From the IMG/VR virus record IMGVR_UViG_3300045988_067234, positions 1-43,132 of that record: a stretch of 43,132 nt of DNA; one strand, written 5' to 3'. Positions 1 to 43,132 of the stretch are shown piece by piece. Made by a program: the position numbers and the translations under genes. The stretch comes from a virus. Every line of letters begins with the position of its first letter. Within the stretch, counting starts at the first letter, position 1. The notes beneath the pieces are model-generated. The model saw nothing but the letters and a program-made list of their open reading frames with translations. It had not been told where the DNA came from and did no database searches.

Positions 1-78
1 CATGACAACAGCTCCGTCTGGGCGGATGGCAACAGCTCCATCTATACGTATGACAACAGCTCCGTCTGGGCGCATGGC
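1..78. repeat. Terminal overlap, identical to 43055-43132
   Basis: The first 78 nt (catgacaacagctccgtctgggcggatggc...tctgggcgcatggc) equal the last 78 nt of the window. Confidence 0.9.
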
Positions 79-222
79 AACAGCTCCGTCTGGGCGCATG
101 GCAACAGCTCCGTCGAGGCGCATGACAACAGCTCCGTCTGGGCGAAGGGCAACAGCTCCGTCTGGGCGGATGGCAACAGCTCCGTCGTGGCGAAGGGCAA
201 CAGCCAAGTTGTTGACGCGCAT
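1..222 (+). repeat. 24-nt tandem coding repeats (continuation of 42947-43132)
   Basis: Near-identical 24-nt units encode x-(D/G)-N-S-S-(V/I)-x-(A/T), decaying by about nt 222. Confidence 0.85.
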
Positions 223-3069: not shown

Positions 3070-3333
3070 CTGGATTATTAAGGAGAGTGACACATGATAC
3101 ATTAGGACAAGTTTTATGATGATTGCCCGTTGCCGGACGCGGAACCGGCGCATAAAAAAGAAAAGGAGATATGAAAAATGGCTGAAAGCAAAAATCTTAG
3201 CAAGCATTGCGAGCGGTGGCAAAGACATACGCAAGTAAACCGCGACTATGGCGAATGCAGACGCTTTTCGCTAACAACGAAAAATGACGATTTTTGCAGC
3301 CGCGGAGAAAGGCGGGGTTGACATCTGCTCGAA

Positions 3334-12171: not shown

Positions 12172-15100
12172 ATGGCTTACAATCCTTTCCGAGACGGCAA
12201 GCAGACGCAGAGCACGCAGACCGGGCGAGTGAATCCGTTCCGGCAGACCAGCGCGGACAGAAGCGACAGAGAGCGCGTGATGCGCAACTGGCAGAGCGAC
12301 GCGGAGCAGCACGGCATATTGAACAATCCCCAGTACACCGACGAGGGCAAAGCGTATCAGCAGATGGCGCAGGAATACGCAAAGTACGGCACACAGTATC
12401 AGAACCAGCTCAAACAGGGCGTGACCGGGCGGCAGTGGGCGGCTGACACGGCGCGGCGGCTTGAGGAGCTTACACAGCAGCAGAGAGCGGCACAGCAGAC
12501 GGAACGGCGCAGGCAGGACGCGGACGCTATAGGCGATCCGGGACTGTGGGTGACTACGACGGAGCAGTATGACGCACTGCCAGAGGCTCGCAGACAGGAG
12601 GAGGCGCGCAAGGCAAAGCAGCGCCCTGCCGTAAGCCTTGCCGACTACGACAAGCGCATAGCGGAGCTGCGCAAGGAAAAAGAGTGGGCAGACTACTTCG
12701 CCGAGGCCGGGCTGCGCGACGAGGCAGGCTACAAGGCCGGCAGCGCCAGGGGCAAGGCCACGTATGAGAGTGCCGACGCTGCGACTGCGCGGAAGCGCAT
12801 CGGCGAGCTTGAACAGCGGCTGGTCGCGCTGAACCAAAACAGCGGCTGGGCGAGCACGGTGGAGCAGTCGGACGAGATCGAGCGTGAGCGGAACGCCATC
12901 CAGCAGGAGCTGGAATCTCTCGGCGCGGGCTACAAGAACGCGCAGCAGGCGGACTATACCACAAGCGCGAGGAATAATATCTCTGACAGATGGACGCGCG
13001 AGGAGCGAAACAACTTTTACTACCTCTACAACGACAATAAGGACGAGGCACAGGCTTATGCGCGGCGCATCAATGACAGATACGCTTATTCGGACGCGCA
13101 GGCGAAGAAGGAAAAGGCCGGCGAGTGGGCAAGTCAGAATTTCTGGACGGGCTTGGCAGGCACGGCGGCTTCCGTGGGGATGACCATGACGTCTCTTGCC
13201 GACACGCTTGACAGGACGAAAGAATATGCGGCGACCGGAGACGTCTCGGCCAAATCCGGCCTCACCCCCGCGGACATAGGCATGGCGATGACGTCCGCAA
13301 TTGCCTCGTCGCTGAACGAGAAGAGCGGGACTATCAACGACAATGTGTGGGTCATCGGCGGCAAGGGCTTGGGCGACCTATACGAGACGGGGGTAAGCAT
13401 CCTCAACTCCCTCGCATCTGTATACATGCTGGGCGGCGTGGGCACGTACGCCAACTTCTTCGGGCAGGCGAGCAAAACGGCCTACGAGGAGGGCATACAG
13501 CGCGGGCTGAGCGTAGATAAGGCGCTGACCTACGGCTACGCAAGCGGTGTCGCCGAGGTCGCGGGCGAGATGTTCTCAATAGAGCATCTGATAAAGATGA
13601 AGAACCCCAGCTCGCTCAAGGGCATTATCAAGAACATCTTCGTCCAGGGCGGTATTGAGGCAAGCGAAGAGTCGGCCACGACGCTGATGAACACGATATC
13701 GGACGCAATAATAAACGGCGACAAGAGCGAACTTGCGAGCAACTACTACGCGCTGATACAGGCGGGTTACAGCCCTGCGGACGCTGAAAAGCTTGTAATA
13801 GCGGACTGGACTCAGGGCGTTATGTATGATGCCTTGGGCGGCTTTGTGAGCGGCGTTGCAAGCGCCGGCGTCCACAGCACCGTGCAGGGCAGCATGACAT
13901 ACAAGGGCGACGCGCAGGAGCTTATCGACTACGCCAAGAGCGAGGGCGCGGACACTGCGGCGGCGAAACGTGCGCAGAAATACGAAAAGCGCCTACAGAG
14001 CGGGAAGCGCATGACGAACTATCAGGCGGGGACGCTCACGGAGCTTGCGCAGGAGGCCGTGGTCTCAAAAGACCTCGATAACATCCGCGAGGCCGTCGGC
14101 AAGCGGCTTGCCGCGCTCGGCGAAAACAGCTCAGCGCTCACGGAAGCCGTTGTGCGGCAGGCGGTGCAGCAGGAGGCAAAGGCGGCGGACATCAGCGTCC
14201 CGAAGGTCACGGAGAAGCAGCGCGGCCTGATCCAGAACAGCAAGGCGGCAAAGCGCGTGCTCTCCGAGATGGACATCGGCAACATGCGCATGGAGACCGC
14301 GGCGGAGCTGAGCGGGCATGACGGCAGCCAGTATCAGCGCTCTAACGAGTGGGCACGGGATATCGGCACACGCATCATTGCACCCGGAGAATACGGTGTA
14401 CGCAGCACCGACACCGTGACCGCAGAGGAGAAGAGGGCTGACGTGAAGGTCGGAGACGAGAGCGGAAAGGTCGTCGGCTTCAAGAACGGCATGGCGCGCG
14501 TCGAGGTCACGGAGAACGGCAAGAGTACCATCCGGGAGGTAAAGCCCGACGACGTGCAGCAGCTCCCCAAGCAGACGCGCAGGCTGTTTGACGAGATATC
14601 CCGCTATGACGGCGACACGCAGGCGGCAATGTACGCGGCGTATATGCCGGGGCAGGACATAGCAGCATACGTGCAGGCGGCGGACACTGCGATGAACCTC
14701 TACGGCGCGCAGACCAAAGCAACACTTGAGCAGGCGCGCAGTTTCGGCAAGGCGACCTTCCGGATGCTGAGCGACGCCCAGCTCGACGCGCTGATGCAGG
14801 CAGGGCGCAAGCTCGCGGATCAGCGGAAAGCGGCGGCGGAGCGCACCGGCGAGGGCAAGGGCGAGGTCAAGCAGGGCAAGGTGTCCTACGACGGCGGTGA
14901 GGCCGGCGGGCGCAAGCTCAAAGCCCCAAGCAAGGAAGCGATAGACCGCATGAGCGACGCCGAGAAGACCCTCGCGGAGGCGCTGACGGCTACGGGTGTG
15001 AACGTTGTGTTCTACGAGAGCGAGGCAAACGCCGAGGGCAGATACAGCGGCGCGCAGGGCATGTACTACAACGGCACGGTTTACCTCGATGTGAACGCAG

Positions 15101-18100
15101 GCATGAACAGCGTGGAGAGCGGGCAGCGGACGATAGTTCTGACGGCGGCGCACGAAATGACGCACTTCATCCGCGAGAACAGCGAGGCCGGATATATAGC
15201 GCTGCGCGAGTACATAACCGACAGGCTCATGCAGCAGGGGCTGGATATCGAAGAGCTTGTCACGCAGAAGCGCGCAAGAGAGAGCCGCGAGCTGAGCTAT
15301 GACGAGGCCGTGGAGGAGGTAATAGCCGACGCGTGCGAGACGGTTCTGACGGAGCCGACGGCAATAAGGCAGCTTGCAAGCGATAATATGCCTCTGGCAA
15401 AGAAGATACGCAAGTGGCTGAATGATTTCTTCAGGAAAATCAAAAGCGCGTTTGCGGGGCTTGAGGCCGTCCACGACGAGGCCAAGGCAATGACCGACTA
15501 CATGGACGAGCTGCGGGCAATGTGGGACGACGCACTCGCCGACGCCGTGCGGAACAGGGCAAATAAAAACGCCGCCGAAAACGGCGACGGGGTAAGACAT
15601 TCTTATGGCGGCAGGGGTGCAGAGAACGCCAACCTTGATGAATTAGACAGGGCTAAGCGTTTGCTTGCGCAAGGAGTTGACAAAGATGCTGTTAGGAGAG
15701 ATACAGGCTGGTTTAGAGGCGCTGATGGTCAATGGCGCTTCGAGATAGACGACAGTGGATTGATTTACAGCAAGACCGGGAATATTCTCGGCTATGCAGA
15801 CAGCGCGAGAGCGCAGCATGAGTATGCGGCGAAGTGGCTTGCGCTTACTTCGGCGGAAATGACGGACGCGCAGCGTGGCGAACTGGCTGAATACATAAAG
15901 CAGCGCGACAACGGCGAGTTCAGCCAAGAGCTGTATAACAAACTAACAGAATATTGGGGAACCGCCTTTGAGGAATACGCCGCAGCGAAAGAGGCAATGC
16001 TTGCCAGGTCAAACGCGTCCGGGGTTACGGTGGGCGACTACATAAAGCACGACGAGCTTTTCGGGCAATACCCGCATCTTAAGGACTTAGGGCTTATTTT
16101 TGAGGACTTGGGCAGCGGAGAAAAAGGATATTTTAATGGGCTCGAGATTGTTATTGACCGCAGTCTAAAAGACGCGCCGGAAAAAACCCTGCTGCACGAA
16201 ATACAGCACGCTATACAGCGGTTTGAGGGTTTCAGCAAGGGCGCATCCGTGGAGTATTGGAATAGGCAACTTGAGGCAGGGAAGAATGTGCGCACGAGAG
16301 CACAGCTCACGGAAGAAGCTCGGATAGAGAACCAGCTTACGGAACTGCGTATTAAGTCGCCAGATTTTTACGCAGATATAATGCAGCTTGAGGAAATGAC
16401 GCCTACCATTCCGAGGGGCAAAATCGACTGGAATACGCTTGAGCAGATAGAACCTGACCCACCGGAATGGCAACGTTATGACACACGCAGAGAGGAACTC
16501 GAACAAAAGTACGGCGAGGACAGGGTGTTCTCTGCGATAGACCTTTTCAATGACCTCACGCAGAGCCGCAAGACGACGCAGCAACTGCCGAGTGAGCTGT
16601 ATTTCAACACAGCCGGAGAGATTGAGGCGCGGGACGTGGCTGCGAGAGCCGCGCTTACAAAAGCCGAGAGAGCCGCCAAAGCGCCAAACCTCGGCGACGG
16701 CAATACGGTTTGGGCGAAGTATTCCATTCGTGAAGACGCTCCGGCGGAGATACACAAAGCCGTAACAGACAAAAACTATGGCGGCGACATCCGACTGACA
16801 GACACTACCCCGAGTATAATGCTTGCTCACAAGGGCGTGCGAAATCTTCCGATGCTCATGAAGGCTTCTCATATCCGCGAGAACATCCTTACGAAGCAGG
16901 AAGCGGCGAAGCTTGGTCTTGATACGGGCAAGGGCATAAATTATCACGGACTTGGCGAGGAGGTTTTCAAAAAAGTTATCGACAGTCTTGACGATATAAG
17001 CGTTGGCTATCGAGGAACGCCGAAATCAAACGACCCGTCCAGACGCGAGAATAGCTTTCTTCTTATCTCTACCGTGAAGGACAACGGCAGGAATACCATT
17101 GTTGTTCCGGTATACATTAACGAGATGGGCAGTTACAACCGTGTGCTCATAAGAACTAACAAGATTGCATCGGTCTATGGTAAAAGCAGCTTGAATGAGT
17201 ATATTAAAAGAGAAATTGCAAAGGGGAATCTTGTACGCATAAAAAAAAGAAGCCCCGCCAACAGTGAATCCCCGGCTCCAATTGCCGTCGATTATAATGG
17301 CGTCACTTCTCAGGCAAAGGCGGCAGATCAGACTGCGATGGCCTTTGGTAATACTAGTATACGCTCCTCTTCCGAAAATAGCAATACCAAAATTAAAAAA
17401 TCTGAGAGAGATGTTGACCTGACTGCAAAATATCCGCAGCTCAACCTCAACGAGGACATATCGGAGCTTGACGGCGTACCCGCAATAGAGCTTACCGACG
17501 GCAGCGTTCTGCCGATAACCGAGCGCGACGGCAGATACCCGACGCACGTTTCATTCATTGAAGCGAACCGCATAGACGTTGACGACCTCAAGAGCGGCGG
17601 CTGGATAGGCAACGGCGTATATGACCCGTCTTTCACCAGCGACACACAGCGCTATATAGAGCGGCAGCAGGCGAGAAAACGCGTGGCAGAGCTGACGGGC
17701 AAGCAGTATGAGCAGTTCAGGTATTCCATGCGCGACGTGACGGTCGATGACACACGGGAGGAGCTGGCACAGCGCAGAGCGGCATACGCAAGGCTTGAGC
17801 GCGAGAACGCGGCACTGAAAGCCCGCGTGGACTACCTCAAAGGGCAAACGAAGCTGACGAAGGAAGCGACGGTGCGCGAGAGCGACGTTGCCAAGTATGC
17901 GCGGAGCATACTCAAGGAGTACACGAGTCGTGCGGACAGCGCGGAGATACAGCAGCAGCTTCAGGAGCTGGGCAACTACATCGTGCAGAACGATGCGCGG
18001 GTACTGAGCTACGACGAGATACGCAGCCGCGCAGAAGATATTGCGGAAACTGTGCTTGACAACGCCCATGCTGTTATCGCCGAAGAAATGCCGGGGCTCG

Positions 18101-21100
18101 GCGAATATAAGGAGTTCTTGAGAAACACGGCGCTGAAGGTGAGCGACAACACACTGAACGATCTGCCGGAGGGATTCCGCAAAGAATACTCGGGCAAGAT
18201 AAAGCTCCGTGCAGACGGGCGCAGCGTAGACAGCGTATGGATGGAACTGCAGGAAAGATACGGTGAGGGCGAGTTCCCAAGCAACATCTACGCGCAGAGC
18301 GATATGCTTGAGATAATGGCCGACAAGTTCAGCACATGGCAGGCCATAGAGGGCAACCCGTTTTACAACTATATGGGCGAGGCAATACAGAGCCTGACGA
18401 ACGACATCATGGACATGGTGCTCGGAGCGGATATACGCCAGACTGCGCCGACGTACGCAGACCGCGCGGCGGCCAAGCTTGCCCGCGAACGCGCGAAAGG
18501 CGCGGAAGCGGTTGCGGCTGAACGGGAACGCGGCAGCGCGCGAGCCGAACGGCTTCAGGCGATGTTAGAGAGCGAACGCGAGCGGCGGCGCGAAGAAGTA
18601 GCCCGCGAAAAGGCTGACAAGTGGGCGGCGGTCGGCTCGGTGCGCGAATACTACCAGAGCATGATAAAGCGCCAGAGGGCGGAGCGCGCAGAGTCAGCGG
18701 ACAGGGGCAAATACCGTGCGCAGGTCGAAAAGCGCACGAAAGAACTCAGCGACTGGCTGCTCACCAACAGCGACAAGCAGCATGTGCCGGAGGTGCTGAA
18801 AAAAACCATAGGCGATTTTCTCGCGACCCTGGATTTCACGAGCCGCAGAGCTCTTGAGGGCGGCACAGCTACGCAGAAGGACGCACGCTTTCAGCAGAGA
18901 CTCAGCGCTTTGCAGGAGCTGCTGAGGAAACAGGCGGCAGCGCTGGAAGAGAACTCCGACGCAGACACCTTTACCGGATATCTGGACATTGACGGAGACA
19001 CGATGGACGCGCTCGCACAGCTCGTGCAGGACGTGAACGCGGCAATCGGCAGCGACCGCACATGGACTGTGAACCGGATGAATGCAGCAGACTTGGCGCG
19101 GCTGGATCAGGTGCTGAAGGTTCTGCAGCACAGCGTGAAAAACATGAATAAGCTGCTGGCAAACGCGCACTTCAAAAGCTCCATAGAAGCGGCGCAGAAC
19201 ACCATGACGCGCATGGACGCACTGAAAACGAACAGAAAGTATGCAGGCAAGGTCAAGGACTTCTTCGCATGGGACAACGTAACGCCGATTTATGCGTTCC
19301 GGCGCTTCGGCGACGGCGGCAAAGCAATTTTCGATTCCTTTACGCGCGGCTGGGACAAGATGGCATTCAACATGAGAACCATCTATGACTATGCCGAGAA
19401 CGCGTACACCGCCGACGAGGTCAGAGCATGGGAAAAGGATATACGCGAGGTTGAGCTGAGCACGGGGAAGAAGGTTCGTATCCCTGTGAGCGCAATCATG
19501 GAACTATATGTGAGCGCAAAGCAGGAGCAGGCTATGAACCACCTGAACGGCGGCGGCCTCCGCGTGAGCGACTTCAAGGATGGCCGGGCGACGGTAAACC
19601 AGACGGAACACTATCTTATGACGGCTGAGGACATCGCGGCAATAACCGGGGAACTGAGCGACAGGCAGAGGGCGGTCGCGGATGCGCTTCAGCGCTTCGC
19701 GGCGGGCACCGGTGCCGCATGGGGCAATGAAGTCAGCATGAAGCGCTTCGGATACAGGGCGTTCACCGAGGAAAGCTACTGGCCGATAGCGACGGATGAC
19801 AACACACGAGACGCCATTGACCCGCAGGCAAGAGCAAACGATATGTACCGTCTGCTCAACATGAGCATGACAAAGGGCAGAAATGCGAAAGCAAACAACG
19901 CACTTGTTGTGGGCAGCATCTTCGACACGTTCTCGGCGCATATGGCAGATATGGCGAAATACAACGCACTTGCATTGCCGGTGCTGGATGCGATGAAGTG
20001 GTACAACTACCGCGAGAAAGAGACTCTTTCAACGGGGCAGATAAAGACCGCTTCCGTGCAGGGCGCGATAGAGGGTGCGTATGGCCGAGGCGCGAACAAC
20101 TACATCGTAACGTTGATGAAGGATATCAACGGCAAACAGGAGCTTGGGCGCGGAGAGGATCTTCCACGGAAGATGATCTCGAACTACAAGGTGGCCTCGG
20201 TGGCGGCAAACGTCCGTGTGGCGCTCCTTCAGCCGACCTCATATGTCCGCGCCGGAATGGAGCTCGACCCGAAGTATCTTGCAAAGGGTGCTTTGATAAA
20301 GGGCGGCGTGCAGGAAATGATGAACTATTCCGGCACTGCAATCTGGAAGGACTTCGGCGGCTATGACACCAACATAAGCCGCAACATCCGCGACCAGATA
20401 AAGCATGACGCCACAGCCGGCGAGCAGATAAAGGAAAAGAGCATGGTGCTTGCTGAACTCGGCGACCGTCTGACATGGGGCGCGCTGTGGAACGCCTGCA
20501 AGCTCGAAGTGCAGGACAAGCAGCATTTGAGCGGCGAGGAACTTATGCAGGCCACGGCAAACAGATTCCGCGAGGTCATCTATCTGACACAGGTAATGGA
20601 CAGCACATTGACGCGCAGCCACAATATGCGCAGCAAGAGCACGTATGCCTCTCTCGCTACGGCGTTTATGTCTGAGCCTACGCTGAGTTACAGCATGGTG
20701 CAGGATGCTTTCATGGATTATATGGACGAACGCAAGATAAGCAAGAACGGGACAGCGGCATGGCAGAAGACACGCGGGAAGCTCGTAAAGGCGCTCGGCA
20801 TATACGCGATGAGCGCGGCTGCAAGCGCCATTATTGAGTCCCTTTGGGATGCATTCCGCGACGATGATGACTACGAGACGCTGCTCGAAAAAATTCTCGA
20901 AGCCATGTTCGGCACAAAGGAGGGTTGGTTCCTCGACGGCAACCTTATAGGCGACCTGCGAATAACCACAAAGCTGCCGCTTGTGAAGGATATCGTTTCG
21001 ATGTTTGACGGCTACAGCAACGACCGCATGGACACGGCGTGGGCGGCAAACCTTGTAAAGGCGTATAAGATATGGAAGGAAACGATAGACCTTGCGACAG

Positions 21101-22290
21101 GCAAGCTCGACAAGCCGACTGACGCCACATATAACGGCAAGATGACTTGGTACGGGAAACTGTACAACACGCTGAAGCCGCTGAGCCAGATGACAGGTTT
21201 TGCAATTGCGAACCTCACGCGCGACGTTTCGGCGATCTGGAACACCACATTCGGCGCATGGACGGGCAAGAAGCTCAGAACATATTACCCCGGCGTGAAG
21301 ACATCCGTAAAATACGCGTATCAGGACGGGTATCTGACAGCTGAGGAGGCCGAGAAGATACTCATTAACGAGGGCGTAGCGGAAGACAAGAATGACGTGT
21401 ACTTTATGCTGGATGAGTGGGACAGCGGAAAGAGCAGCTACAGCAAGTACGGCGCGATCAAGGACGCGGCGAAGGCAGGGGACAAAGCGGCATACAAGAG
21501 CGCGCTTAAAGACCTTACCGACCACGGTATAACAGAAAAGAACGCGCAGAGTGCGATCCGCAGTGCACTCAAGGAGTGGTATCAGGGCACGGAAGACACG
21601 CCGCAAAGCGTAAGCAAGCAGGACACGATCAAAAAGCTTCAGGAATTCACCGGGATGAGCAAGGCCGACGCGGAGGCGACGGCGCTTGAATGGACGTGCA
21701 AGATCGTTACCGGCGTGGAATACAGCGATATAAAGACGGCGTATCTCGATGGCGATGTGAACGCGGTCAAAGCGAAGCAAATGCTTATGAGATACGGCGG
21801 ACTCACCTCCGAGGAGGCGGACAAGCGCATTCAGAACTACAAGTTTGAGGAGCAATACGGGTTCACTTACAGCAGGAGCAACGTGCAGGACGAATATATC
21901 AGAGGCAGTATAAGCGAGGCGACCGCAAAAACCATGCTGACGCAGTACGGGGGTAAGACGGATGAGGAGGCGGAGCGCAGCATACAGGCGTTTAATTTCC
22001 TCCGAAGCTATCCGGAATACGACGCGGAGGATATAACCGAGGCGCAGATAGCAAAGTACTATGAAAGCGTGGACGGCAGCGGCGTGAGCGTACGGGAATA
22101 CGTCAACTACGCCAGCTTTATACGCAGCACAAGCGCCGATGTAGACGCAGACGGCAACGCGATAAACGGCTCGAAGATGCGTAAGGTGATGGAGTATATC
22201 GACAGCCTAAACCTGACGTCGCAGCAGAAAGACGTACTATTCCTGACACAGTACGCGAAGAGCAGCTTGAGAAAGACCCCGTGGCACTAA
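12172..22290 (+). CDS. Giant (3372 aa) polyvalent virion-associated protein with two HExxH zincin-like modules and a MuF-C-like domain
   Basis: Single uninterrupted ORF. HEMTH at 15151-15165 and HEIQH at 16195-16209. GWFRG..WRFEI and AGEIEARD motifs. MuF-C-like block at about 16700-17260. Gly-rich hydrophobic segments at about 13140-13880. Confidence 0.85.
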   Translation: MAYNPFRDGKQTQSTQTGRVNPFRQTSADRSDRERVMRNWQSDAEQHGILNNPQYTDEGKAYQQMAQEYAKYGTQYQNQLKQGVTGRQWAADTARRLEELTQQQRAAQQTERRRQDADAIGDPGLWVTTTEQYDALPEARRQEEARKAKQRPAVSLADYDKRIAELRKEKEWADYFAEAGLRDEAGYKAGSARGKATYESADAATARKRIGELEQRLVALNQNSGWASTVEQSDEIERERNAIQQELESLGAGYKNAQQADYTTSARNNISDRWTREERNNFYYLYNDNKDEAQAYARRINDRYAYSDAQAKKEKAGEWASQNFWTGLAGTAASVGMTMTSLADTLDRTKEYAATGDVSAKSGLTPADIGMAMTSAIASSLNEKSGTINDNVWVIGGKGLGDLYETGVSILNSLASVYMLGGVGTYANFFGQASKTAYEEGIQRGLSVDKALTYGYASGVAEVAGEMFSIEHLIKMKNPSSLKGIIKNIFVQGGIEASEESATTLMNTISDAIINGDKSELASNYYALIQAGYSPADAEKLVIADWTQGVMYDALGGFVSGVASAGVHSTVQGSMTYKGDAQELIDYAKSEGADTAAAKRAQKYEKRLQSGKRMTNYQAGTLTELAQEAVVSKDLDNIREAVGKRLAALGENSSALTEAVVRQAVQQEAKAADISVPKVTEKQRGLIQNSKAAKRVLSEMDIGNMRMETAAELSGHDGSQYQRSNEWARDIGTRIIAPGEYGVRSTDTVTAEEKRADVKVGDESGKVVGFKNGMARVEVTENGKSTIREVKPDDVQQLPKQTRRLFDEISRYDGDTQAAMYAAYMPGQDIAAYVQAADTAMNLYGAQTKATLEQARSFGKATFRMLSDAQLDALMQAGRKLADQRKAAAERTGEGKGEVKQGKVSYDGGEAGGRKLKAPSKEAIDRMSDAEKTLAEALTATGVNVVFYESEANAEGRYSGAQGMYYNGTVYLDVNAGMNSVESGQRTIVLTAAHEMTHFIRENSEAGYIALREYITDRLMQQGLDIEELVTQKRARESRELSYDEAVEEVIADACETVLTEPTAIRQLASDNMPLAKKIRKWLNDFFRKIKSAFAGLEAVHDEAKAMTDYMDELRAMWDDALADAVRNRANKNAAENGDGVRHSYGGRGAENANLDELDRAKRLLAQGVDKDAVRRDTGWFRGADGQWRFEIDDSGLIYSKTGNILGYADSARAQHEYAAKWLALTSAEMTDAQRGELAEYIKQRDNGEFSQELYNKLTEYWGTAFEEYAAAKEAMLARSNASGVTVGDYIKHDELFGQYPHLKDLGLIFEDLGSGEKGYFNGLEIVIDRSLKDAPEKTLLHEIQHAIQRFEGFSKGASVEYWNRQLEAGKNVRTRAQLTEEARIENQLTELRIKSPDFYADIMQLEEMTPTIPRGKIDWNTLEQIEPDPPEWQRYDTRREELEQKYGEDRVFSAIDLFNDLTQSRKTTQQLPSELYFNTAGEIEARDVAARAALTKAERAAKAPNLGDGNTVWAKYSIREDAPAEIHKAVTDKNYGGDIRLTDTTPSIMLAHKGVRNLPMLMKASHIRENILTKQEAAKLGLDTGKGINYHGLGEEVFKKVIDSLDDISVGYRGTPKSNDPSRRENSFLLISTVKDNGRNTIVVPVYINEMGSYNRVLIRTNKIASVYGKSSLNEYIKREIAKGNLVRIKKRSPANSESPAPIAVDYNGVTSQAKAADQTAMAFGNTSIRSSSENSNTKIKKSERDVDLTAKYPQLNLNEDISELDGVPAIELTDGSVLPITERDGRYPTHVSFIEANRIDVDDLKSGGWIGNGVYDPSFTSDTQRYIERQQARKRVAELTGKQYEQFRYSMRDVTVDDTREELAQRRAAYARLERENAALKARVDYLKGQTKLTKEATVRESDVAKYARSILKEYTSRADSAEIQQQLQELGNYIVQNDARVLSYDEIRSRAEDIAETVLDNAHAVIAEEMPGLGEYKEFLRNTALKVSDNTLNDLPEGFRKEYSGKIKLRADGRSVDSVWMELQERYGEGEFPSNIYAQSDMLEIMADKFSTWQAIEGNPFYNYMGEAIQSLTNDIMDMVLGADIRQTAPTYADRAAAKLARERAKGAEAVAAERERGSARAERLQAMLESERERRREEVAREKADKWAAVGSVREYYQSMIKRQRAERAESADRGKYRAQVEKRTKELSDWLLTNSDKQHVPEVLKKTIGDFLATLDFTSRRALEGGTATQKDARFQQRLSALQELLRKQAAALEENSDADTFTGYLDIDGDTMDALAQLVQDVNAAIGSDRTWTVNRMNAADLARLDQVLKVLQHSVKNMNKLLANAHFKSSIEAAQNTMTRMDALKTNRKYAGKVKDFFAWDNVTPIYAFRRFGDGGKAIFDSFTRGWDKMAFNMRTIYDYAENAYTADEVRAWEKDIREVELSTGKKVRIPVSAIMELYVSAKQEQAMNHLNGGGLRVSDFKDGRATVNQTEHYLMTAEDIAAITGELSDRQRAVADALQRFAAGTGAAWGNEVSMKRFGYRAFTEESYWPIATDDNTRDAIDPQARANDMYRLLNMSMTKGRNAKANNALVVGSIFDTFSAHMADMAKYNALALPVLDAMKWYNYREKETLSTGQIKTASVQGAIEGAYGRGANNYIVTLMKDINGKQELGRGEDLPRKMISNYKVASVAANVRVALLQPTSYVRAGMELDPKYLAKGALIKGGVQEMMNYSGTAIWKDFGGYDTNISRNIRDQIKHDATAGEQIKEKSMVLAELGDRLTWGALWNACKLEVQDKQHLSGEELMQATANRFREVIYLTQVMDSTLTRSHNMRSKSTYASLATAFMSEPTLSYSMVQDAFMDYMDERKISKNGTAAWQKTRGKLVKALGIYAMSAAASAIIESLWDAFRDDDDYETLLEKILEAMFGTKEGWFLDGNLIGDLRITTKLPLVKDIVSMFDGYSNDRMDTAWAANLVKAYKIWKETIDLATGKLDKPTDATYNGKMTWYGKLYNTLKPLSQMTGFAIANLTRDVSAIWNTTFGAWTGKKLRTYYPGVKTSVKYAYQDGYLTAEEAEKILINEGVAEDKNDVYFMLDEWDSGKSSYSKYGAIKDAAKAGDKAAYKSALKDLTDHGITEKNAQSAIRSALKEWYQGTEDTPQSVSKQDTIKKLQEFTGMSKADAEATALEWTCKIVTGVEYSDIKTAYLDGDVNAVKAKQMLMRYGGLTSEEADKRIQNYKFEEQYGFTYSRSNVQDEYIRGSISEATAKTMLTQYGGKTDEEAERSIQAFNFLRSYPEYDAEDITEAQIAKYYESVDGSGVSVREYVNYASFIRSTSADVDADGNAINGSKMRKVMEYIDSLNLTSQQKDVLFLTQYAKSSLRKTPWH

Positions 22291-34817: not shown

Positions 34818-34858
34818 GAACAAGCCCGGTACGGAATCACTCCGTATCGGGCTTGTTC
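34818..34858. terminator. Bidirectional hairpin terminator overlapping the repressor stop codon
   Basis: 18-bp stem GAACAAGCCCGGTACGGA/TCCGTATCGGGCTTGTTC with one G-U pair. Confidence 0.55.
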
Positions 34859-35220
34859 AGTTTATCGGCGAGTCTTCGGAACACTGCGGAGAGCTCCTTC
34901 CACTCTTCGACAGTGGTCTCGGCCATAAATTCAATAAGCAGCTGCTCGATATCCGAGCGCTTGCCCTCGGAGAGCTGGCCGATGTACTCATCTATAACGT
35001 CGCGCCGCGACTTCTGCGGGAACGGCTGACCGGTGCCGGTACGCAGCCACACCTCATCTACGTTATATACTCGGCAGATTGCTGCAATCATCATGTCGGA
35101 GACGGCTGCGCGGCCATTTTCAACATTATTTATCATGTCTCGGCTCGCACCTAGCGGTTCACCGAACGCGGTTTGCGATAGTTTTTTTAATTTGCGGACT
35201 TGCTTGATTCTTCCGTTCAT
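34837..35220 (-). CDS. CI-like repressor (XRE-family HTH)
   Basis: IKQVRKLKKLSQTAFGEPLGASRDMINNVENGR HTH. Divergent from a consensus early promoter with operators. Confidence 0.8.
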   Translation of the reverse strand: MNGRIKQVRKLKKLSQTAFGEPLGASRDMINNVENGRAAVSDMMIAAICRVYNVDEVWLRTGTGQPFPQKSRRDVIDEYIGQLSEGKRSDIEQLLIEFMAETTVEEWKELSAVFRRLADKLNKPDTE

Positions 35221-35249: not shown

Positions 35250-35278
35250 AGAATAGCATATGTTTTTGAGTATGTCAA
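35250..35278 (-). promoter_or_regulatory. Candidate repressor-maintenance promoter (TTGACA-17-TATTCT on the minus strand)
   Basis: -35 is the rc of 35273-35278 and -10 the rc of 35250-35255. The -35 lies inside operator O1. Confidence 0.5.
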
Positions 35279-35283
35279 CTCAA
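35266..35283. promoter_or_regulatory. Operator O1 (TTGAGTATGTCAACTCAA)
   Basis: Imperfect palindrome TTGAGT-N6-ACTCAA, embedded in the longer inverted repeat TTTTTGAGT/ACTCAAAAA. Confidence 0.6.
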
Positions 35284-35306
35284 AAAACATAAAAAATATT
35301 TGCAAA

Positions 35307-35324
35307 ATGGGTTGACAAACTCAG
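35307..35324. promoter_or_regulatory. Operator O2 candidate (ATGGGTTGACAAACTCAG), overlapping the -35
   Basis: 11 of 15 conserved positions shared with O1 and O3. Confidence 0.4.
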
Positions 35325-35340
35325 AAATGCAAGTTATAAT
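35312..35340 (+). promoter_or_regulatory. Early rightward promoter, consensus sigma-70 type
   Basis: TTGACA (35312-35317), 17-nt spacer, TATAAT (35335-35340). Confidence 0.8.
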
Positions 35341-35356
35341 GAGTCCATCAACTCAA
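35339..35356. promoter_or_regulatory. Operator O3 (ATGAGTCCATCAACTCAA), overlapping the -10 and +1
   Basis: 14 of 18 positions identical to O1. Confidence 0.6.
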
Positions 35357-35449
35357 TAAGGCGAGCGCCAGTACACACGAGAGGGGAACACAAGTAAGCC
35401 GATGGGCGGCGGCTAAACCGGCCAGAAAGGATAGAGGGGGAAATAGAAA

Positions 35450-35695
35450 ATGTATAAACTTCCTACAAAAGAAGAGCGAGAAAGTACAGCGCTGGGGCGT
35501 TTCGAGCTGGTTTGCGAAGCATACATTAACGGAAACCAGCAGCAGAGGGAAATAATCTTGTCAATGCTGAATGAAAGCGAACGGGAAACGTTTTTAACCG
35601 GCTGCGGTCTTTATCATCTGTTCACAGACCATCGCTTCTATGATGAAGTGAAAAATGCTGTCGGCGTCCAACTTTATAACGAATTACACAAATAA
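35450..35695 (+). CDS. Hypothetical early protein
   Basis: GAGGGGGAAATAGAAAATG initiation region; first gene after the early promoter. Confidence 0.55.
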   Translation: MYKLPTKEERESTALGRFELVCEAYINGNQQQREIILSMLNESERETFLTGCGLYHLFTDHRFYDEVKNAVGVQLYNELHK

Positions 35696-35727
35696 ACTGA
35701 GCAATCAAGCACATGAGAGGAGAACAC

Positions 35728-36033
35728 ATGATGATCAAAAAGGAAGCTAATCTGAGCGAGCGCATCAAAATGGTAAAGGCGATGGAGTTTATCTGCCGGC
35801 AGATAAACGATGAGGACGTATTTGAGTGCTGGCTCGTGAACGGCGTCGCGGACGGCGACATTGAGTATGGCGACCTGAGCGTGAACACGACGGAGCCGGA
35901 CGCAACATGGTACGCAGAGAACGACGAACGGTTTGCCGACCTGATGGACACCTTCCTATGGTGCATGAAAAAGGCTTACAAGTCCGGTGGCTTGTACTGT
36001 GACAATGTTGTGAGTAAAGAGAAAGCAGACTGA
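35728..36033 (+). CDS. Hypothetical early protein
   Basis: ATG at 35728 follows GAGAGGAG. Confidence 0.55.
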   Translation: MMIKKEANLSERIKMVKAMEFICRQINDEDVFECWLVNGVADGDIEYGDLSVNTTEPDATWYAENDERFADLMDTFLWCMKKAYKSGGLYCDNVVSKEKAD

Positions 36034-36046
36034 AAGGAGAATGACG

Positions 36047-36274
36047 ATGCCAAACATAATAGAATCGACAATTGAAGTATTCAAGCCGAAAGCAGAAGCG
36101 GAAGCCTTGAAGCCTTGTCCCTTCTGTGGCGGAACAGAAATCGTATATGAACGCTATCTGCACATGGCCGGAGAACGGTACCGAGTATGGTGTACGGGCT
36201 GCACGGCGGGAGTTGACCCCGGATATGCACGGGACATCGGAACGGTGCAAAACATGTGGAATCGCAGAGTATAA
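36047..36274 (+). CDS. lar: Lar-family restriction alleviation protein
   Basis: CPFCGGTEI...WCTGC...VQNMWNRR pattern, typical of the Lar family. ATG at 36047 lies 7 nt after GGAG. Confidence 0.6.
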   Translation: MPNIIESTIEVFKPKAEAEALKPCPFCGGTEIVYERYLHMAGERYRVWCTGCTAGVDPGYARDIGTVQNMWNRRV

Positions 36275-36298
36275 GCCGAAACGGCCTGAAAAGGCCGT
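36275..36298 (-). terminator. Minus-strand terminator ending RNA unit A
   Basis: Stem ACGGCC/GGCCGT (36281-36298), followed on the minus strand by TTTCGGCTT. Confidence 0.45.
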
Positions 36299-36680
36299 AG
36301 AGACTGTGCGCATGGCGCGGTAGGGTGGGTGACAGAGAAAGCAAGCGGGGCTGTAACCTCCGCAGGCTTCCTCTGCACAGGCTCCCAATCGGCCGCAGGC
36401 GCTCAATACGGCTCAATTTACAGCCGTCCCGCGGGCGAATTGTGCGGGGTGGGCTGAGGGGCAGCGTCAACCAATGAGCGCATCCTGTTACAGCAGGGGC
36501 TTAGGCCGATTCCGTTCTTTCAGTGTGCGAGCTTCGCGGGCTTTAATCTCCCGCGAACTGAGAACGAGTCACCAGGAGCAACAGGAACGGCGACATGAAG
36601 GAAGCCACTAAGGTTTCCATACGCATCACCTCCTTTCGCTCCGGAGCAAGCCCATCCTATCACGCCATGCGCACAGAGTC
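36299..36680 (-). ncRNA. Structured RNA unit A (candidate; strand assigned from promoter and terminator signals)
   Basis: No credible long ORF. Nested helices: 36302-36329/36651-36680, 36387-36394/36504-36511, 36399-36405/36475-36481, 36533-36540/36550-36557. Homologous to unit B, with compensatory changes. Confidence 0.45.
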
Positions 36681-36682
36681 AA
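36654..36682 (-). promoter_or_regulatory. Candidate minus-strand promoter of unit A (TTGACT-17-TAGGAT)
   Basis: rc of 36677-36682 and 36654-36659, at a position homologous to the unit B promoter. It conflicts with the long closing helix, which includes it. Confidence 0.35.
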
Positions 36683-36708
36683 ACAAAAAACGGGGCTTAT
36701 GCGCCCCG
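36681..36708 (-). terminator. Minus-strand rho-independent terminator ending RNA unit B
   Basis: Stem CGGGGC/GCCCCG (36691-36708), followed on the minus strand by TTTTTTGTTT. Confidence 0.7.
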
Positions 36709-37103
36709 CCTTAATGCAGCCGAGGACGGTCACAAGCCCGTGAAAATGCAGAGTGAGGACAAGGACGCCGAGAGAAAACCGGTGCATCGTCCATACACCG
36801 GTTTCCTCTGCACTTAGCTCCCGACACAGCGCAGATGCTTCCCTACGCCAGAATTCAGCGCCGTTCCGATGCCTGCGAGAGGCGGTTGCGGAAGCGCAGG
36901 GGATGCGAGCCCGGGAAGCATCACTTGGAACGAACAAGTGCTTAGCTGTGTCTCAGTACTTCAACGCACGCGTCGCGCCCGGGGCGAGTACCGGGACGGT
37001 GTACTGAATCAAGGGAGCGCCGGAGAGGCAGCATGAAAGAACCTAAGAGGCTTTCCATGACAACACCCCCTTTCGACCGGCCGGTAAGATTACCGCGGCG
37101 TCC
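36709..37103 (-). ncRNA. Structured RNA unit B (candidate)
   Basis: Helices 36763-36770/37096-37103, 36779-36784/36796-36801, 36823-36830/36945-36952, 36834-36843/36913-36922. A promoter lies immediately upstream on the minus strand. Confidence 0.45.
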
Positions 37104-37105
37104 TT

Positions 37106-37134
37106 ATTCTACAAAAGATTTTAGGAAATGGCAA
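37106..37134 (-). promoter_or_regulatory. Minus-strand sigma-70-like promoter of unit B (TTGCCA-17-TAGAAT)
   Basis: rc of 37129-37134 and 37106-37111. The predicted start coincides with the 5' strand of the unit B closing helix. Confidence 0.55.
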
Positions 37135-37153
37135 GAAAAACGGAGGTGAAACA

Positions 37154-37300
37154 ATGAGCGAGCAGGAGAAAAAGGCGGCGAAGGAGCTGCTGGACGACCT
37201 GAAGAAGATCCCGGCGGACGGCGCGGATTATGTGCGCGGCTATCTGCGGGGCAGGCTGGACGGCCTGAAGAACCGCAAGGACAAGGAGGACGAGGAATGA
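37154..37300 (+). CDS. Hypothetical small charged protein (48 aa)
   Basis: ACGGAGGTGAAACAATG initiation region; ATGA overlap with the next gene. Confidence 0.45.
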   Translation: MSEQEKKAAKELLDDLKKIPADGADYVRGYLRGRLDGLKNRKDKEDEE

Positions 37301-37599
37301 ACGAAGACCGTGCATATAGAGAACAGGGCACCGCGGCGTACCTAAAACTGCGAATACCATTCGACTATTCGAACTTAAAGAAGGAAATCGCCAAGCAGTA
37401 CAAAACGCGAAGAGCCTTTGCACGGGCGATGGGGCTCCCTGAGAACTCGGTGTATCGGAAGTTGAACGGGAAAGCATACTGGAAGCAGCGAGAAATCGTG
37501 GCGGCAAGCATGTTGCTTGACATACCGTTTTATCTGATGCCGGCTTATTTCTTCAACGTGGATACGAAGTGCAAAAAGGAGGCACGACATGACCCTTGA
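37297..37599 (+). CDS. DUF739-like Cro-type regulator candidate
   Basis: FDYSNLKKEIAKQYKTRRAFARAMGLPENSVYRKLNGK...YFF pattern, typical of DUF739 phage HTH proteins. Confidence 0.55.
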   Translation: MNEDRAYREQGTAAYLKLRIPFDYSNLKKEIAKQYKTRRAFARAMGLPENSVYRKLNGKAYWKQREIVAASMLLDIPFYLMPAYFFNVDTKCKKEARHDP

Positions 37600-42820: not shown

Positions 42821-43132
42821 ATGAACGAGAAAATAGTTACCAGTCAGGCAGAGCTTGACGCGATACCCGTAGATTACAACGGCAGAATCATCATAAAGTT
42901 CGGCACCCCGGCCGAGCGTGCAGTTGTGAGCAAAAAGTATCTGCGCTCCGTCGAGGCGCATGACAACAGCTCCGTCGAGGCGCATGACAACAGCTCCGTC
43001 TGGGCGAAGGGCAACAGCTCCATCTATACGTATGACAACAGCTCCGTCGAGGCGCATGACAACAGCTCCGTCTGGGCGGATGGCAACAGCTCCATCTATA
43101 CGTATGACAACAGCTCCGTCTGGGCGCATGGC
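42821..43132 (+). CDS. Octapeptide-repeat protein, N-terminal part (runs off the window; continues at nt 79 after removing the 78-nt overlap)
   Basis: ATG at 42821 follows TAAGGAG. No stop before the window end (104 full codons). The repeats begin at 42947. Confidence 0.75.
   Translation, partial: MNEKIVTSQAELDAIPVDYNGRIIIKFGTPAERAVVSKKYLRSVEAHDNSSVEAHDNSSVWAKGNSSIYTYDNSSVEAHDNSSVWADGNSSIYTYDNSSVWAHG
42947..43132 (+). repeat. 24-nt tandem coding repeats
   Basis: Units such as catgacaacagctccgtcgaggcg recur with few substitutions. Confidence 0.85.
43055..43132. repeat. Terminal overlap, identical to 1-78
   Basis: Direct string identity. Confidence 0.9.

What the first reader, a model, noticed from the sequence alone, without database searches (positions are those of the whole stretch)
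36275..37153. Two diverged tandem copies of a ~400-nt structured element, antisense inside the early operon
Between the Lar-like gene and the next RBS-led ORF (37154) lie about 880 nt with no credible long ORF. The region splits into two homologous units, A (~36281-36680) and B (~36681-37103).

Shared sequence blocks:
- TTCCTCTGCAC..GCTCCC at 36368-36386 and 36803-36822.
- CATGAAgGAAgCC..TTTCCAT..CACCyCCTTTCG at 36594-36638 and 37033-37076.

Helices at equivalent positions have different sequences in the two units, which is compensatory change:
- GCGGGG/CCTCCGC in A versus CCGGTG/CACCGG in B.
- AATCGGCC/GGCCGATT in A versus GACACAGC/GCTGTGTC in B.
- GCGCTCA/TGAGCGC in A versus GATGCTTCCC/GGGAAGCATC in B.
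- A ~28-bp closing helix 36302-36329/36651-36680 in A versus GGACGCCG/CGGCGTCC in B.

Expression signals point to the minus strand. There are promoters TTGCCA-17-TAGAAT (37134-37106) and TTGACT-17-TAGGAT (36682-36654). There are intrinsic terminators at 36708-36681 and 36298-36275. These units would therefore be transcribed head-on against the early promoter at 35312, which must read through them to reach the Cro-like and replication genes.

Each unit starts with a strong SD (AAAGGAGGTG / AAAGGGGGTG) and a short ORF:
- A, 36620-36543: METLVASFMSPFLLLLVTRSQFAGD.
- B, 37058-36942: MESLLGSFMLPLRR...
The first 12 residues are conserved despite synonymous codon differences (TTA/CTC Leu, TCC/TCT Ser, CCG/CCT Pro).

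Possible readings are a type I toxin-antitoxin-like pair, an RNA-based immunity or antisense brake on early transcription, or a large ornate phage ncRNA. ROOL and GOLLD class RNAs occur in Firmicute prophages, but I cannot verify membership. One G-U pair (GGAAGCC/GGTTTCC) fits the plus strand better, so strandedness is not settled.
Basis: partly seen in the sequence, partly recalled or inferred. Interest (0 to 1): 0.85.

Follow-up and report, generated by a model that had tools for sequence, protein, structure and literature searches.

The report
Paired structured RNA cassettes flanking twister ribozyme

Summary
Units A (36304-36676) and B (36761-37105 plus a 45-nt tail) are homologous (nhmmer E about 1e-6). 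They share about 11 helices in the same order with different sequences, fold far better than shuffles (z -5.5 to -8), and match no Rfam family.

New findings:
- A plus-strand type-P1 twister ribozyme (36708-36759) lies between the units.
- Close relatives (gut metagenomes, probably Oscillospiraceae phages) carry A+twister+B, A+twister, twister+B, B alone, twister alone, or deletion remnants. The cassettes are therefore modular accessories, and the twister is independent of them.
- The cassettes vary much less than synonymous sites in neighbouring genes.

The strand is not settled. Wobble counts are symmetric.
- For the minus strand: homologous promoters and SD/AUG in A and B, an always-open 25-codon ORF in A, and a real minus-strand gene abutting A in relatives.
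- For the plus strand: A's 26-bp closing helix contains that promoter.

Best guess (0.4): autonomous minus-strand structured RNAs convergent on the early promoter. ROOL/GOLLD membership, a decayed gene and a MITE are not supported.

The parts
35312..35340 (+). Early promoter TTGACA-17-TATAAT. It drives the plus-strand operon that must read through the whole region.
   Evidence: 12/12 match.
36281..36298 (.). Small hairpin ACGGCC/GGCCGT between the Lar stop codon and unit A. It is a weak minus-strand terminator candidate.
   Evidence: Read. Not flagged by the scan. Relatives carry a strong terminator-like hairpin, a half hairpin, or a minus-gene start at this position.
36304..36676 (.). Unit A: a structured cassette with helices P1-P8. 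The P1 arms are 36304-36329 and 36651-36676. The conserved block TTCCTCTGCAC is at 36368-36378.
36654..36682 (-). Promoter-like site P_A, TTGACT-17-(TG)n-TAGGAT. It lies in and next to the right arm of P1.
   Evidence: Identical in all A units that were aligned.
36543..36637 (-). 13-nt SD-like sequence GAAAGGAGGTGAT (36625-36637), ATG at 36620-36618, and a 25-codon ORF ending at 36543. The SD and AUG are buried in hairpin P8.
36691..36708 (.). GC hairpin CGGGGC-TTATGC-GCCCCG. On the plus strand it is the 3' hairpin immediately before the twister cleavage site. On the minus strand, with its T tract, it is a good intrinsic terminator (36712-36687).
36708..36759 (+). Type-P1 twister ribozyme lacking the optional P3 hairpin. 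Cleavage is predicted between U36712 and A36713.
   Evidence: 55.1 bits, E 4e-11, full-length model. P1, P2 and T1 covary among relatives. A P3-bearing relative passes the Rfam gathering score.
36761..37105 (.). Unit B: a paralogous structured cassette (P1-P9). The P1 arms are 36761-36770 and 37096-37105. The conserved block TTCCTCTGCAC is at 36803-36813.
36942..37073 (-). SD-like AAAGGGGGTG (37064-37073), ATG at 37058-37056, and a 38-codon ORF.
   Evidence: The SD is destroyed in L010, L112, L137 and L151.
37106..37141 (-). Tail of cassette B carrying promoter-like site P_B, TTGCCA-17-TAGAAT (37134-37106).
   Evidence: Kept in deletion derivatives L138 and L139, next to a minus-strand gene.
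37154..37300 (+). First ORF downstream (48 aa). Its SD, AACGGAGGTGA, is complementary to the CACCTCCTTT block of unit A. The DUF739 Cro-like gene follows at 37297-37599.
   Evidence: (I8)

Best explanation
The gap contains three separable things.

**1. A plus-strand processing module.** It consists of a GC hairpin and a type-P1 twister ribozyme. It cuts the early polycistronic mRNA just upstream of the SD of the next gene. The same module occurs in other gut phages between ordinary genes.

**2 and 3. Two paralogous accessory cassettes, A and B.** They are inserted just upstream and just downstream of that module. Both share one multi-helix architecture.

**Proposed mechanism (inferred, not shown).**
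- Each cassette is most likely a self-contained minus-strand transcription unit. It has a sigma-A-type promoter at its right end and a strong SD plus AUG sequestered in hairpin P8. It also has a short ORF (25 or 38 codons) and a multi-branched body of roughly 300 nt.
- The transcript would be a stable structured RNA made convergently against the early promoter, chiefly while that promoter is repressed in the lysogen.
- It would act as RNA rather than through its peptide. It would damp leaky read-through from the early promoter toward the Cro-like gene by convergent transcription and by pairing with the complementary leader.
- In relatives it would also supply the promoter and long leader for minus-strand moron genes.
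- The sense-strand twister physically uncouples the downstream early mRNA from this leader.

**Status of each step.**
- Shown: the homology, the shared architecture, the modularity, the twister, the sequence signals, and the reduced diversity.
- Inferred: transcription from the minus strand and the regulatory effect.
For: **Promoters.**
- Promoter-like sites lie at equivalent ends of both cassettes.
- The hexamers and the 17-bp spacing are conserved between A and B while the spacers are unrelated.
- The 14-nt difference in promoter-to-AUG distance equals the P9 hairpin present only in B (read).

**SD, AUG and ORF.**
- SD plus AUG with 5-6-nt spacers occur in both units.
- The 25-codon ORF of A is open in all 30 loci that carry it. 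Changes outside a swapped hairpin fall 7 of about 10 at third codon positions, and the stop codon stays at the same place (TAA or TGA).
- The SD and AUG are sequestered in P8 when the predicted minus transcripts are folded.

**Minus-strand gene context.**
- A bona fide minus-strand gene of 101 aa directly abuts A's left end in many relatives, with no intervening terminator. Of its 19 variable sites, 17 are at codon position 3.
- Deletion derivatives L138 and L139 have lost A, the twister and B. They retain the B-tail promoter 60-80 nt upstream of that gene. In L138 it is the only minus promoter-like site near the gene.

**Terminators.** Strong minus terminators flank A in a subset of loci.

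**Twister independence.** The twister occurs without A or B (L153) and with B only (L149). Its plus-strand polarity therefore says nothing about the cassettes.

**Constraint.** Mean pairwise diversity is 0.010 in B and 0.030 in A. Third codon positions of the adjacent genes show 0.08-0.11.
Against: **A's closing helix.** The 26-bp helix contains P_A's spacer and -10 box, so it cannot form in a transcript started at P_A. It can form in the plus-strand read-through RNA.

**Wobble evidence is symmetric.**
- G-U versus A-C counts are 3:3, 4:5 and 1:1 in the shared helices.
- Counts for pairs sandwiched between Watson-Crick pairs are equally balanced.

**B variants in four relatives.** A cluster of C-to-T changes destroys the minus-strand SD and the minus-strand P8 pairing. 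The same changes keep every plus-strand pair as G-U.

**Terminators.**
- The cassettes carry no terminator of their own at the minus-strand 3' end.
- About ten loci have only half a hairpin at the left flank of A.

**Peptides.**
- The A and B peptides resemble each other for only 12 residues, with no codon-position bias.
- Changes in B's ORF are mostly non-synonymous.

**Independence and alternatives.**
- All loci come from one phage lineage with the same insertion sites, so orientation is not independently sampled.
- Low diversity could equally reflect recent horizontal spread.
- No expression data are available.
Confidence: 0.4

Rival explanations
1. The cassettes work as plus-strand RNA. 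They would be large structured domains of the early-operon transcript, either a leader or a discrete ornate ncRNA. Unit A would be released with a hairpin-protected 2',3'-cyclic-phosphate 3' end by the twister, possibly after RNase III cuts the 26-bp stem. Unit B would form the 5' leader of the mRNA for the 48-aa and Cro-like genes. Possible roles are mRNA stabilisation, translational control through the anti-SD-like CACCUCCUUUC block, or an early anti-defence RNA.
For: - The cassettes lie in a plus-strand operon behind a perfect promoter in every context. In L003, unit B sits about 45 nt after the early promoter.
- Homology breakpoints coincide with the closing helices. A's 26-bp helix can form only in plus-strand RNA.
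- The C-to-T cluster in L010, L112 and L151 preserves plus-strand pairing as G-U.
- Unit A always ends with a linker, a hairpin and the twister cleavage site.
- The 11-nt block TCACCTCCTTT is complementary to the SD of the next gene (I8).
- Diversity is low.
Against: - The twister module exists without the cassettes, so the association is positional and not obligatory.
- No plus-strand-specific signal belongs to the cassettes themselves.
- The minus strand folds slightly better, both as single sequences and as alignments.
- An A-C mismatch on the plus strand, which is G-U on the minus strand, is conserved in the P2 base of both A and B.
- This reading would have to treat the conserved promoter hexamers, SD and AUG on the other strand as coincidence.
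- Plus-strand ORFs are not conserved: the ATG is lost in 13 of 30 loci that carry unit A.
Confidence: 0.3
2. Each unit is a type I toxin-antitoxin-like locus. The minus-strand RNA would be a translationally locked toxin mRNA, with its 5' and 3' ends paired and its SD sequestered, encoding a small peptide. Complementary plus-strand RNA would act as the antitoxin.
For: - Short ORFs sit behind strong but sequestered SD sequences.
- The 5' and 3' ends pair in B.
- The two paralogues are adjacent, in a prophage.
- A's peptide has a hydrophobic core and is always intact.
Against: - A's hydrophobic stretch is about 14 residues and contains two prolines in most variants.
- B's peptide is basic and not hydrophobic after residue 12. 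Its SD is lost in four loci, and its changes are mostly non-synonymous.
- No plus-strand promoter for a small antisense RNA was found.
- No Rfam type I toxin or antitoxin family matches at E<=10.
- Units are lost freely in relatives, with no sign of addiction.
Confidence: 0.1
3. The units are selfish or decaying insertions with no RNA function. They would be MITE-like elements with terminal inverted repeats, or a DNA-level structure. Their low diversity would reflect recent spread by recombination.
For: - Unit A has 26-bp terminal inverted repeats that begin TG and end CA.
- Presence/absence polymorphism, internal deletions (L144) and solo arms occur.
- Helices are almost purely Watson-Crick, with equal G-U and A-C counts.
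- Hairpin-like direct repeats flank A in some loci.
Against: - A and B keep their internal sequence blocks and their architecture but differ completely in the terminal repeats. This is the reverse of what a transposase-recognised element would show.
- No other copies were found in 185,579 species-representative genomes, in IMG/VR or in JGI metagenomes outside this phage lineage.
- No consistent target-site duplication is present.
- Eleven helices are maintained by compensatory change between paralogues that agree at about half of aligned positions.
Confidence: 0.1
4. The region is a decayed protein-coding gene.
For: Spurious ORFs of 45-129 aa exist on both strands.
Against: - Eight such ORFs give no significant Pfam or PHROG hit.
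- Gene callers leave the units empty in ten independent assemblies.
- The conservation pattern is one of helices.
- blastn searches of the phage and plasmid collections matched only the twister region, and no relative retrieved carries an intact long ORF across the units.
Confidence: 0.02

Closest known systems
Type-P1 twister self-cleaving ribozyme (Rfam RF03160)
   Same: The element at 36708-36759 matches the full model. It has the UAA cleavage site, P1, P2 and P4, and both pseudoknots. P1, P2 and T1 covary among phage relatives.
   Different: It lacks the optional P3 hairpin and so scores 55.1 bits, below the 67.2-bit gathering score. It covers only 52 nt between the units and does not explain the units themselves.
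Type I toxin mRNAs with long-range 5'-3' closure and a sequestered SD (hok/sok, AapA1/IsoA1, fst; comparison from my own knowledge)
   Same: - A minus-strand RNA of 370-420 nt.
- A short ORF.
- An SD buried in a hairpin.
- 5' and 3' ends that pair (in B).
- Adjacent paralogous copies, in a prophage.
   Different: - No small antisense gene is present.
- B's peptide is not hydrophobic.
- The peptides are alike for only 12 residues.
- No family match was found.
- The units are lost freely in relatives.
Dual-function structured sRNAs such as S. aureus RNAIII or B. subtilis SR1 (from my own knowledge)
   Same: A highly structured RNA of several hundred nucleotides that carries a roughly 25-codon ORF near its 5' end.
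   Different: There is no sequence or Rfam similarity. No targets were identified; a search for complementary sites elsewhere in the window found only chance-level matches. Transcription itself is unproven.
Phage antisense or convergent regulators of the lysis-lysogeny switch (lambda P_RE, oop and paQ transcripts; P22 sar; P1 c4; P4 CI RNA; from my own knowledge)
   Same: The units sit between the early promoter and the cro-like gene, and their promoters point back toward the repressor gene. In L003, P_B would read through B into the repressor gene, as P_RE does.
   Different: The known examples are short (about 60-200 nt) or are plain mRNAs. None has a conserved 11-helix fold of about 350 nt.
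Large ornate prophage-associated ncRNAs (ROOL, GOLLD; PMC5737381)
   Same: A large, multi-junction RNA without a protein product, in a Firmicute prophage.
   Different: No covariance-model match at E<=10 on either strand. The units are smaller (345-375 nt against about 580-800 nt). They are not near tRNA genes (none in the window). Their distribution is very narrow.
Bacterial MITEs such as Correia or RUP elements (from my own knowledge)
   Same: The size, the terminal inverted repeat of A, the strong hairpin potential, and embedded promoter- and terminator-like signals.
   Different: The ends differ between A and B while the interior is conserved. No dispersed copies and no target-site duplication were found.

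Membership tests
twister-P1 ribozyme (RF03160) | Full-length match to the covariance model at or above the curated gathering score (67.2 bits) | tested here: not met
   The match is 55.1 bits, E 4.3e-11, over model positions 1-68; the shortfall comes from the deleted P3 hairpin. A P3-bearing relative in Subdoligranulum variabile scores 68.3 bits.
twister-P1 ribozyme (RF03160) | P1, P2 and P4 helices with the U-A cleavage dinucleotide in the P1/P2 internal loop | tested here: met
   See the alignment. P1 takes at least six different complementary sequences among phage relatives. P2 is UGCA/UGCA here against UGAA/UUCA in a relative.
twister-P1 ribozyme (RF03160) | Two pseudoknots: the P4 loop CCC with GGG in the 3' internal loop, and GC after P2 with GC of the P4 loop | tested here: met
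   The first is CAC/GUG here against CCC/GGG in Shimadzu and L122, a compensatory change. The GC/GC pairing is present. Assignment of the partners rests on my recollection of the published structure.
twister-P1 ribozyme (RF03160) | Self-cleavage activity | not testable with these tools
   Requires in vitro transcription and a cleavage assay.
ROOL / GOLLD / other Rfam large ncRNAs | Match to the family covariance model | tested here: not met
   No hit at gathering score in the whole window. No hit at E<=10 in 35300-37400 on either strand, apart from the twister and three chance-level hits.
Type I toxin-antitoxin | Small hydrophobic (membrane-active) toxin ORF conserved as a protein | tested here: inconclusive
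   A: 25 aa, always open, third-position bias 7 of about 10, but a short proline-containing hydrophobic stretch. B: not hydrophobic, mostly non-synonymous changes, SD lost in four loci.
Type I toxin-antitoxin | Dedicated antisense antitoxin RNA with its own promoter and terminator | tested here: not met
   No plus-strand promoter-like or terminator-like site lies inside or next to the units. No Rfam antitoxin family matches.
Type I toxin-antitoxin | Toxin mRNA with a sequestered SD and long-range 5'-3' pairing | tested here: met
   Folds of the predicted minus transcripts bury the SD and AUG in P8. The ends pair in B. In A, only 3-8 bp of closure is possible from the predicted start.
MITE / IS-derived element | Terminal inverted repeats conserved among copies, multiple dispersed copies, target-site duplication | tested here: not met
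   The ends of A and B are unrelated. Pattern scans of viral, genome and metagenome collections find copies only in this phage lineage. The flanks show no consistent duplication.
Autonomous (moron-like) transcription unit on the minus strand | Own promoter, own translation start or RNA product, own terminator; presence/absence among related phages | tested here: inconclusive
   Promoter-like sites and SD/AUG are conserved. Presence/absence polymorphism is shown. A terminator at the 3' end is present only in some contexts. Transcription is not testable here.

The most novel reading that the evidence does not exclude
A and B would be founding members of an undescribed class of large (about 350-375 nt), multi-junction phage RNAs that act as folded RNA. 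One possibility is discrete early plus-strand particles, trimmed by the twister and by RNase III at the 26-bp stem, that serve as anti-defence decoys or translation modulators through their 16S-3'-end-like CACCUCCUUUC blocks. Another is structured antisense immunity RNAs that set the induction threshold of the prophage.
Probability: 0.25. Interest if true: 0.8.

Novelty: new variant of a known kind. Interest (0 to 1): 0.55.

Why it matters
**If the cassettes are functional RNAs.**
- They add a new structured-RNA family to the lysis-lysogeny switch of a very common human-gut phage lineage. The neighbouring 73-aa protein is indexed in 1125 blocks of the assembly collection.
- Natural variants with every combination of units already exist. 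These form a ready-made deletion series for testing the effect on induction or immunity.

**The twister result stands on its own.**
- It shows a self-cleaving ribozyme used repeatedly as an intercistronic module (stop codon, hairpin, twister, SD) in phage operons.
- This offers a concrete, testable biological role for bacterial twisters, whose function is still largely unknown.

**If the units are merely selfish inserts**, the finding is of modest interest.

Tried and rejected
**Rfam.** The gathering-score scan of the whole window found nothing. The E-value scan found only the twister.

**Similarity searches.**
- blastn against INPHARED phages matched only the 42-nt twister core.
- blastn against PLSDB plasmids matched only the hairpin-plus-twister region, in Subdoligranulum.

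**Pattern scans for distant unit homologues.** One genome scan and one metagenome scan were also run.
- They returned only relatives at about 90% identity or more, plus chance hits. L002, L004, L068, L107 and L108 were checked and rejected.
- No third unit type and no distant homologue was found, so no independent covariation test could be made.

**Profile search.** An nhmmer profile of A plus B, run over all 158 loci and the window, gave no new members. It found only remnants.

**Covariance model.** A full-length model was not attempted, because 350-380 positions exceed the calibration limit.

**Strand inference.**
- G-U versus A-C counts, alignment folding energies and sandwiched-mismatch counts all came out symmetric.
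- qinsi structural alignment was unavailable.

**Other ideas tested and dropped.**
- Operator copies inside the units: none.
- Trans targets elsewhere in the genome: only chance-level matches.
- tRNA-like or tmRNA-like elements: none.
- Tandem-repeat structure: none.
- Decayed gene: no family hits.
- Invertible promoter switch: all loci have the same internal orientation.
- Group I or II intron, RNase P, SRP, 6S: considered from memory and by Rfam, with no support.
- Homologues of the 101-aa minus-strand gene, sought for diverged leaders: only near-identical loci were returned.
Full report
**Setting.** The window is a temperate tailed phage from the human gut.
- Its closest database relatives are unannotated human faecal phage contigs.
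- The twister region matches Subdoligranulum variabile records, so the host is probably in the Oscillospiraceae.
- An HTH repressor gene lies on the minus strand at 34837-35220.
- A perfect TTGACA-17-TATAAT promoter at 35312 points rightward.
- Three small plus-strand genes follow it. The last is a Lar-type restriction-alleviation gene at 36041-36274.
- The next plus-strand genes are a 48-aa ORF (37154-37300) and a DUF739 Cro-like HTH gene (37297-37599).
- The finding concerns the 880 nt in between.

**Checking the observation.** The region has no credible long ORF. Eight ORFs of 45-129 aa that overlap it hit nothing significant in Pfam or PHROGs.
- The two units are homologous. nhmmer with unit A finds unit B, and the reverse, at E about 1e-6 over roughly 285 nt.
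- Both units fold far better than dinucleotide shuffles, on either strand (z -7.2 / -8.0 for A, -5.5 / -5.5 for B).
- I verified by script that eleven helices (P1 to P8, some in two parts) occur in the same order in A and B.
  - Each unit has 74-83 Watson-Crick pairs and at most one non-wobble mismatch.
  - Most helices have entirely different sequences in the two units. In P4, 6 of 8 pairs change on both sides.
- Refinements:
  - The unit limits are 36304-36676 (A) and 36761-37105 (B), plus a 45-nt tail that travels with B.
  - The hairpin at 36281-36298 is only a weak terminator candidate.

An Rfam scan at relaxed threshold finds a full-length type-P1 twister ribozyme on the plus strand at 36708-36759. 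It scores 55.1 bits, E 4e-11. That is below the gathering score because the optional P3 hairpin is absent.
- The ribozyme is genuine.
  - The same subtype in Roseburia phage Shimadzu and in other gut-phage contigs shows at least six different but complementary P1 sequences.
  - P2 covaries (UGCA/UGCA against UGAA/UUCA).
  - One pseudoknot covaries (CAC/GUG against CCC/GGG).
  - A Subdoligranulum copy that still has P3 passes the Rfam threshold.
- In all these genomes the arrangement is the same: stop codon, GC hairpin, twister, SD, start codon.
Preceded by its A run, it also reads as a good terminator on the minus strand.

**Relatives show modularity.** Pattern scans and look-ups by neighbouring proteins retrieved about 40 loci of the same phage lineage, all from gut samples.
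- They carry every combination of parts:
  - A+twister+B, as in L005, L007, L010 and L011.
  - A+twister directly followed by the SD of the 48-aa gene (L028, L045, L082).
  - Twister+B (L149).
  - The twister alone (L153).
  - B alone, about 45 nt downstream of the early promoter (L003).
- Decayed and deleted forms also occur:
  - L138 keeps only the last 75 nt of B and its tail.
  - L139 keeps the hairpin and the tail.
  - L144 has an internally deleted A.
  - L149, L153 and L110 carry a solo 21-nt left arm of A.
- Homology breakpoints fall exactly at the closing helices.
- The units are thus dispensable cassettes inserted on either side of a pre-existing hairpin-twister module. The twister's polarity does not tell us the polarity of the cassettes.
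- The cassettes are nevertheless much less variable than their surroundings.
  - Mean pairwise difference is 0.010 for B and 0.030 for A.
  - Third codon positions of the adjacent 48-aa and 73-aa genes show 0.08-0.11.
  - This means either purifying selection or recent horizontal spread.

**No wider family.** Nothing in Rfam matches the units.
- blastn against phage and plasmid collections matches only the twister.
- Exact-pattern scans of IMG/VR, the GTDB representative genomes and JGI metagenomes found only this lineage plus chance hits.
- The only deep comparison available is therefore A against B. It proves a conserved fold but is blind to strand.

**Which strand?** Direct tests were inconclusive.
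- G-U versus A-C counts in the shared helices are 3:3, 4:5 and 1:1.
- Mismatches sandwiched between Watson-Crick pairs are equally split.
- The minus strand folds slightly better, both as single sequences and as alignments.

Evidence for the minus strand:
- Promoter-like sites sit at the right end of each cassette.
  - They share their hexamers (TTGACT / TTGCCA and TAGGAT / TAGAAT) and their 17-bp spacing, but nothing in the spacer.
  - Their different distance to the AUG (14 nt) is exactly the P9 hairpin that only B has.
- Both cassettes have an SD (13 nt, GAAAGGAGGTGAT, in A; a 10-nt AAAGGGGGTG in B) followed by an ATG after a 5-6-nt spacer, like the real gene starts of this phage.
- The 25-codon ORF of A is intact in all 30 loci that carry it. 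Outside a swapped hairpin its changes are mostly at third positions, and its stop stays in place.
- Many relatives have a genuine minus-strand gene directly abutting A's left end.
  - It encodes 101 aa with a C-terminal transmembrane helix.
  - Of its 19 variable sites, 17 are at third codon positions.
  - No terminator lies between it and A.
- The two deletion derivatives retain the B-tail promoter just upstream of that gene. In L138 it is the only minus promoter-like site nearby.

Evidence for the plus strand:
- A's 26-bp closing helix contains the spacer and -10 box of its own putative promoter. It can form only in read-through RNA from the early promoter.
- In four relatives, a cluster of C-to-T changes in B destroys the minus SD and the minus P8 helix. 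It leaves every plus-strand pair as G-U.
- The cassettes carry no 3' terminator of their own for the minus direction.

**Peptides.** The A and B peptides are alike for only 12 residues. The nucleotide differences in that stretch are spread evenly over codon positions.
- B's peptide is basic and not hydrophobic.
- B's changes among relatives are mostly non-synonymous.
- Whatever A and B share is therefore RNA-level (or DNA-level), not a protein. This weighs against a classical type I toxin.

**Best reading.** At confidence 0.4, I take each cassette to be an autonomous minus-strand unit producing a stable, highly folded RNA.
- The RNA's SD and AUG are locked in hairpin P8.
- It is transcribed convergently against the early promoter.
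- By inference, it acts as an antisense or interference brake on read-through toward the Cro-like gene.
- In relatives it would also serve as promoter and leader for minus-strand moron genes.
- The twister cuts the sense transcript between the cassettes.

**Rival readings.**
- Main rival (0.3): the fold functions in the plus-strand early transcript, as a leader or a released ncRNA.
- Type I toxin-antitoxin: 0.1.
- Selfish or MITE-like insertion: 0.1.
- Decayed gene: 0.02.

**Assessment.**
- The structured units are real, novel as a family, narrowly distributed and of unknown function.
- The twister module is an instructive by-product.
- Strand-specific transcript mapping would settle most of the open points.

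Noticed in passing
window 36708-36759; L001 2501-2542; L120, L122, L124, L125, L132, L153; L157/L158 about 2500-2590: A twister-P1 subtype recurs in gut phages and Subdoligranulum as an intercistronic module: stop codon, GC hairpin, twister, SD, start codon. P1, P2 and T1 covary. Most copies lack P3 and would be missed at Rfam's gathering score.
   Followed up: yes
L138 3450-3755 (minus strand); same gene in L007, L110, L118, L139, L144, L147, L149, L153: A 101-aa minus-strand gene with a C-terminal transmembrane helix is embedded in the plus-strand early operon of relatives. It is under strong purifying selection (17 of 19 variable sites at codon position 3). It has no Pfam or PHROG family and is absent from this window.
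   Followed up: partly
window 1-200 and 43000-43132: Both ends of the window lie in one ORF built of 24-nt tandem repeats (..NSSVWAHGNSSVWA..). The window is probably a circularly permuted complete phage contig that the assembler broke inside this repeat.
   Followed up: partly
window 12172-22290 (+): A single ORF of 3372 aa lies in the structural region.
   Followed up: no
window 35259-35359: Operator-like repeats surround the divergent promoters: the inverted repeat TTTTTGAGT-N6-ACTCAAAAA and three AACTCA(A/G/T)AAA direct repeats. They do not recur in the units.
   Followed up: partly
L151 1-407: A ToxN-type toxin gene (type III toxin-antitoxin, abortive infection) lies in the lysogeny module of a close relative.
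   Followed up: no
window 35397-35425; L153 about 3264-3290: The sequence GCCGATGGGCGGCGGCTAAACCG.. upstream of the 81-aa gene in the window is a relic of the GC hairpin that precedes the twister in L153 and L149. This points to repeated recombination at these hairpins.
   Followed up: partly
window 36625-36637 and 37139-37149: ATCACCTCCTTTC in unit A is, from my recollection of the Bacillus-type 16S sequence, identical to the 3' end of 16S rRNA. The overlapping block TCACCTCCTTT is complementary to the SD of the next plus-strand gene (I8). On the minus strand the same sequence reads GAAAGGAGG, the sequence I recall for the Bacillus STAB-SD mRNA stabiliser.
   Followed up: no
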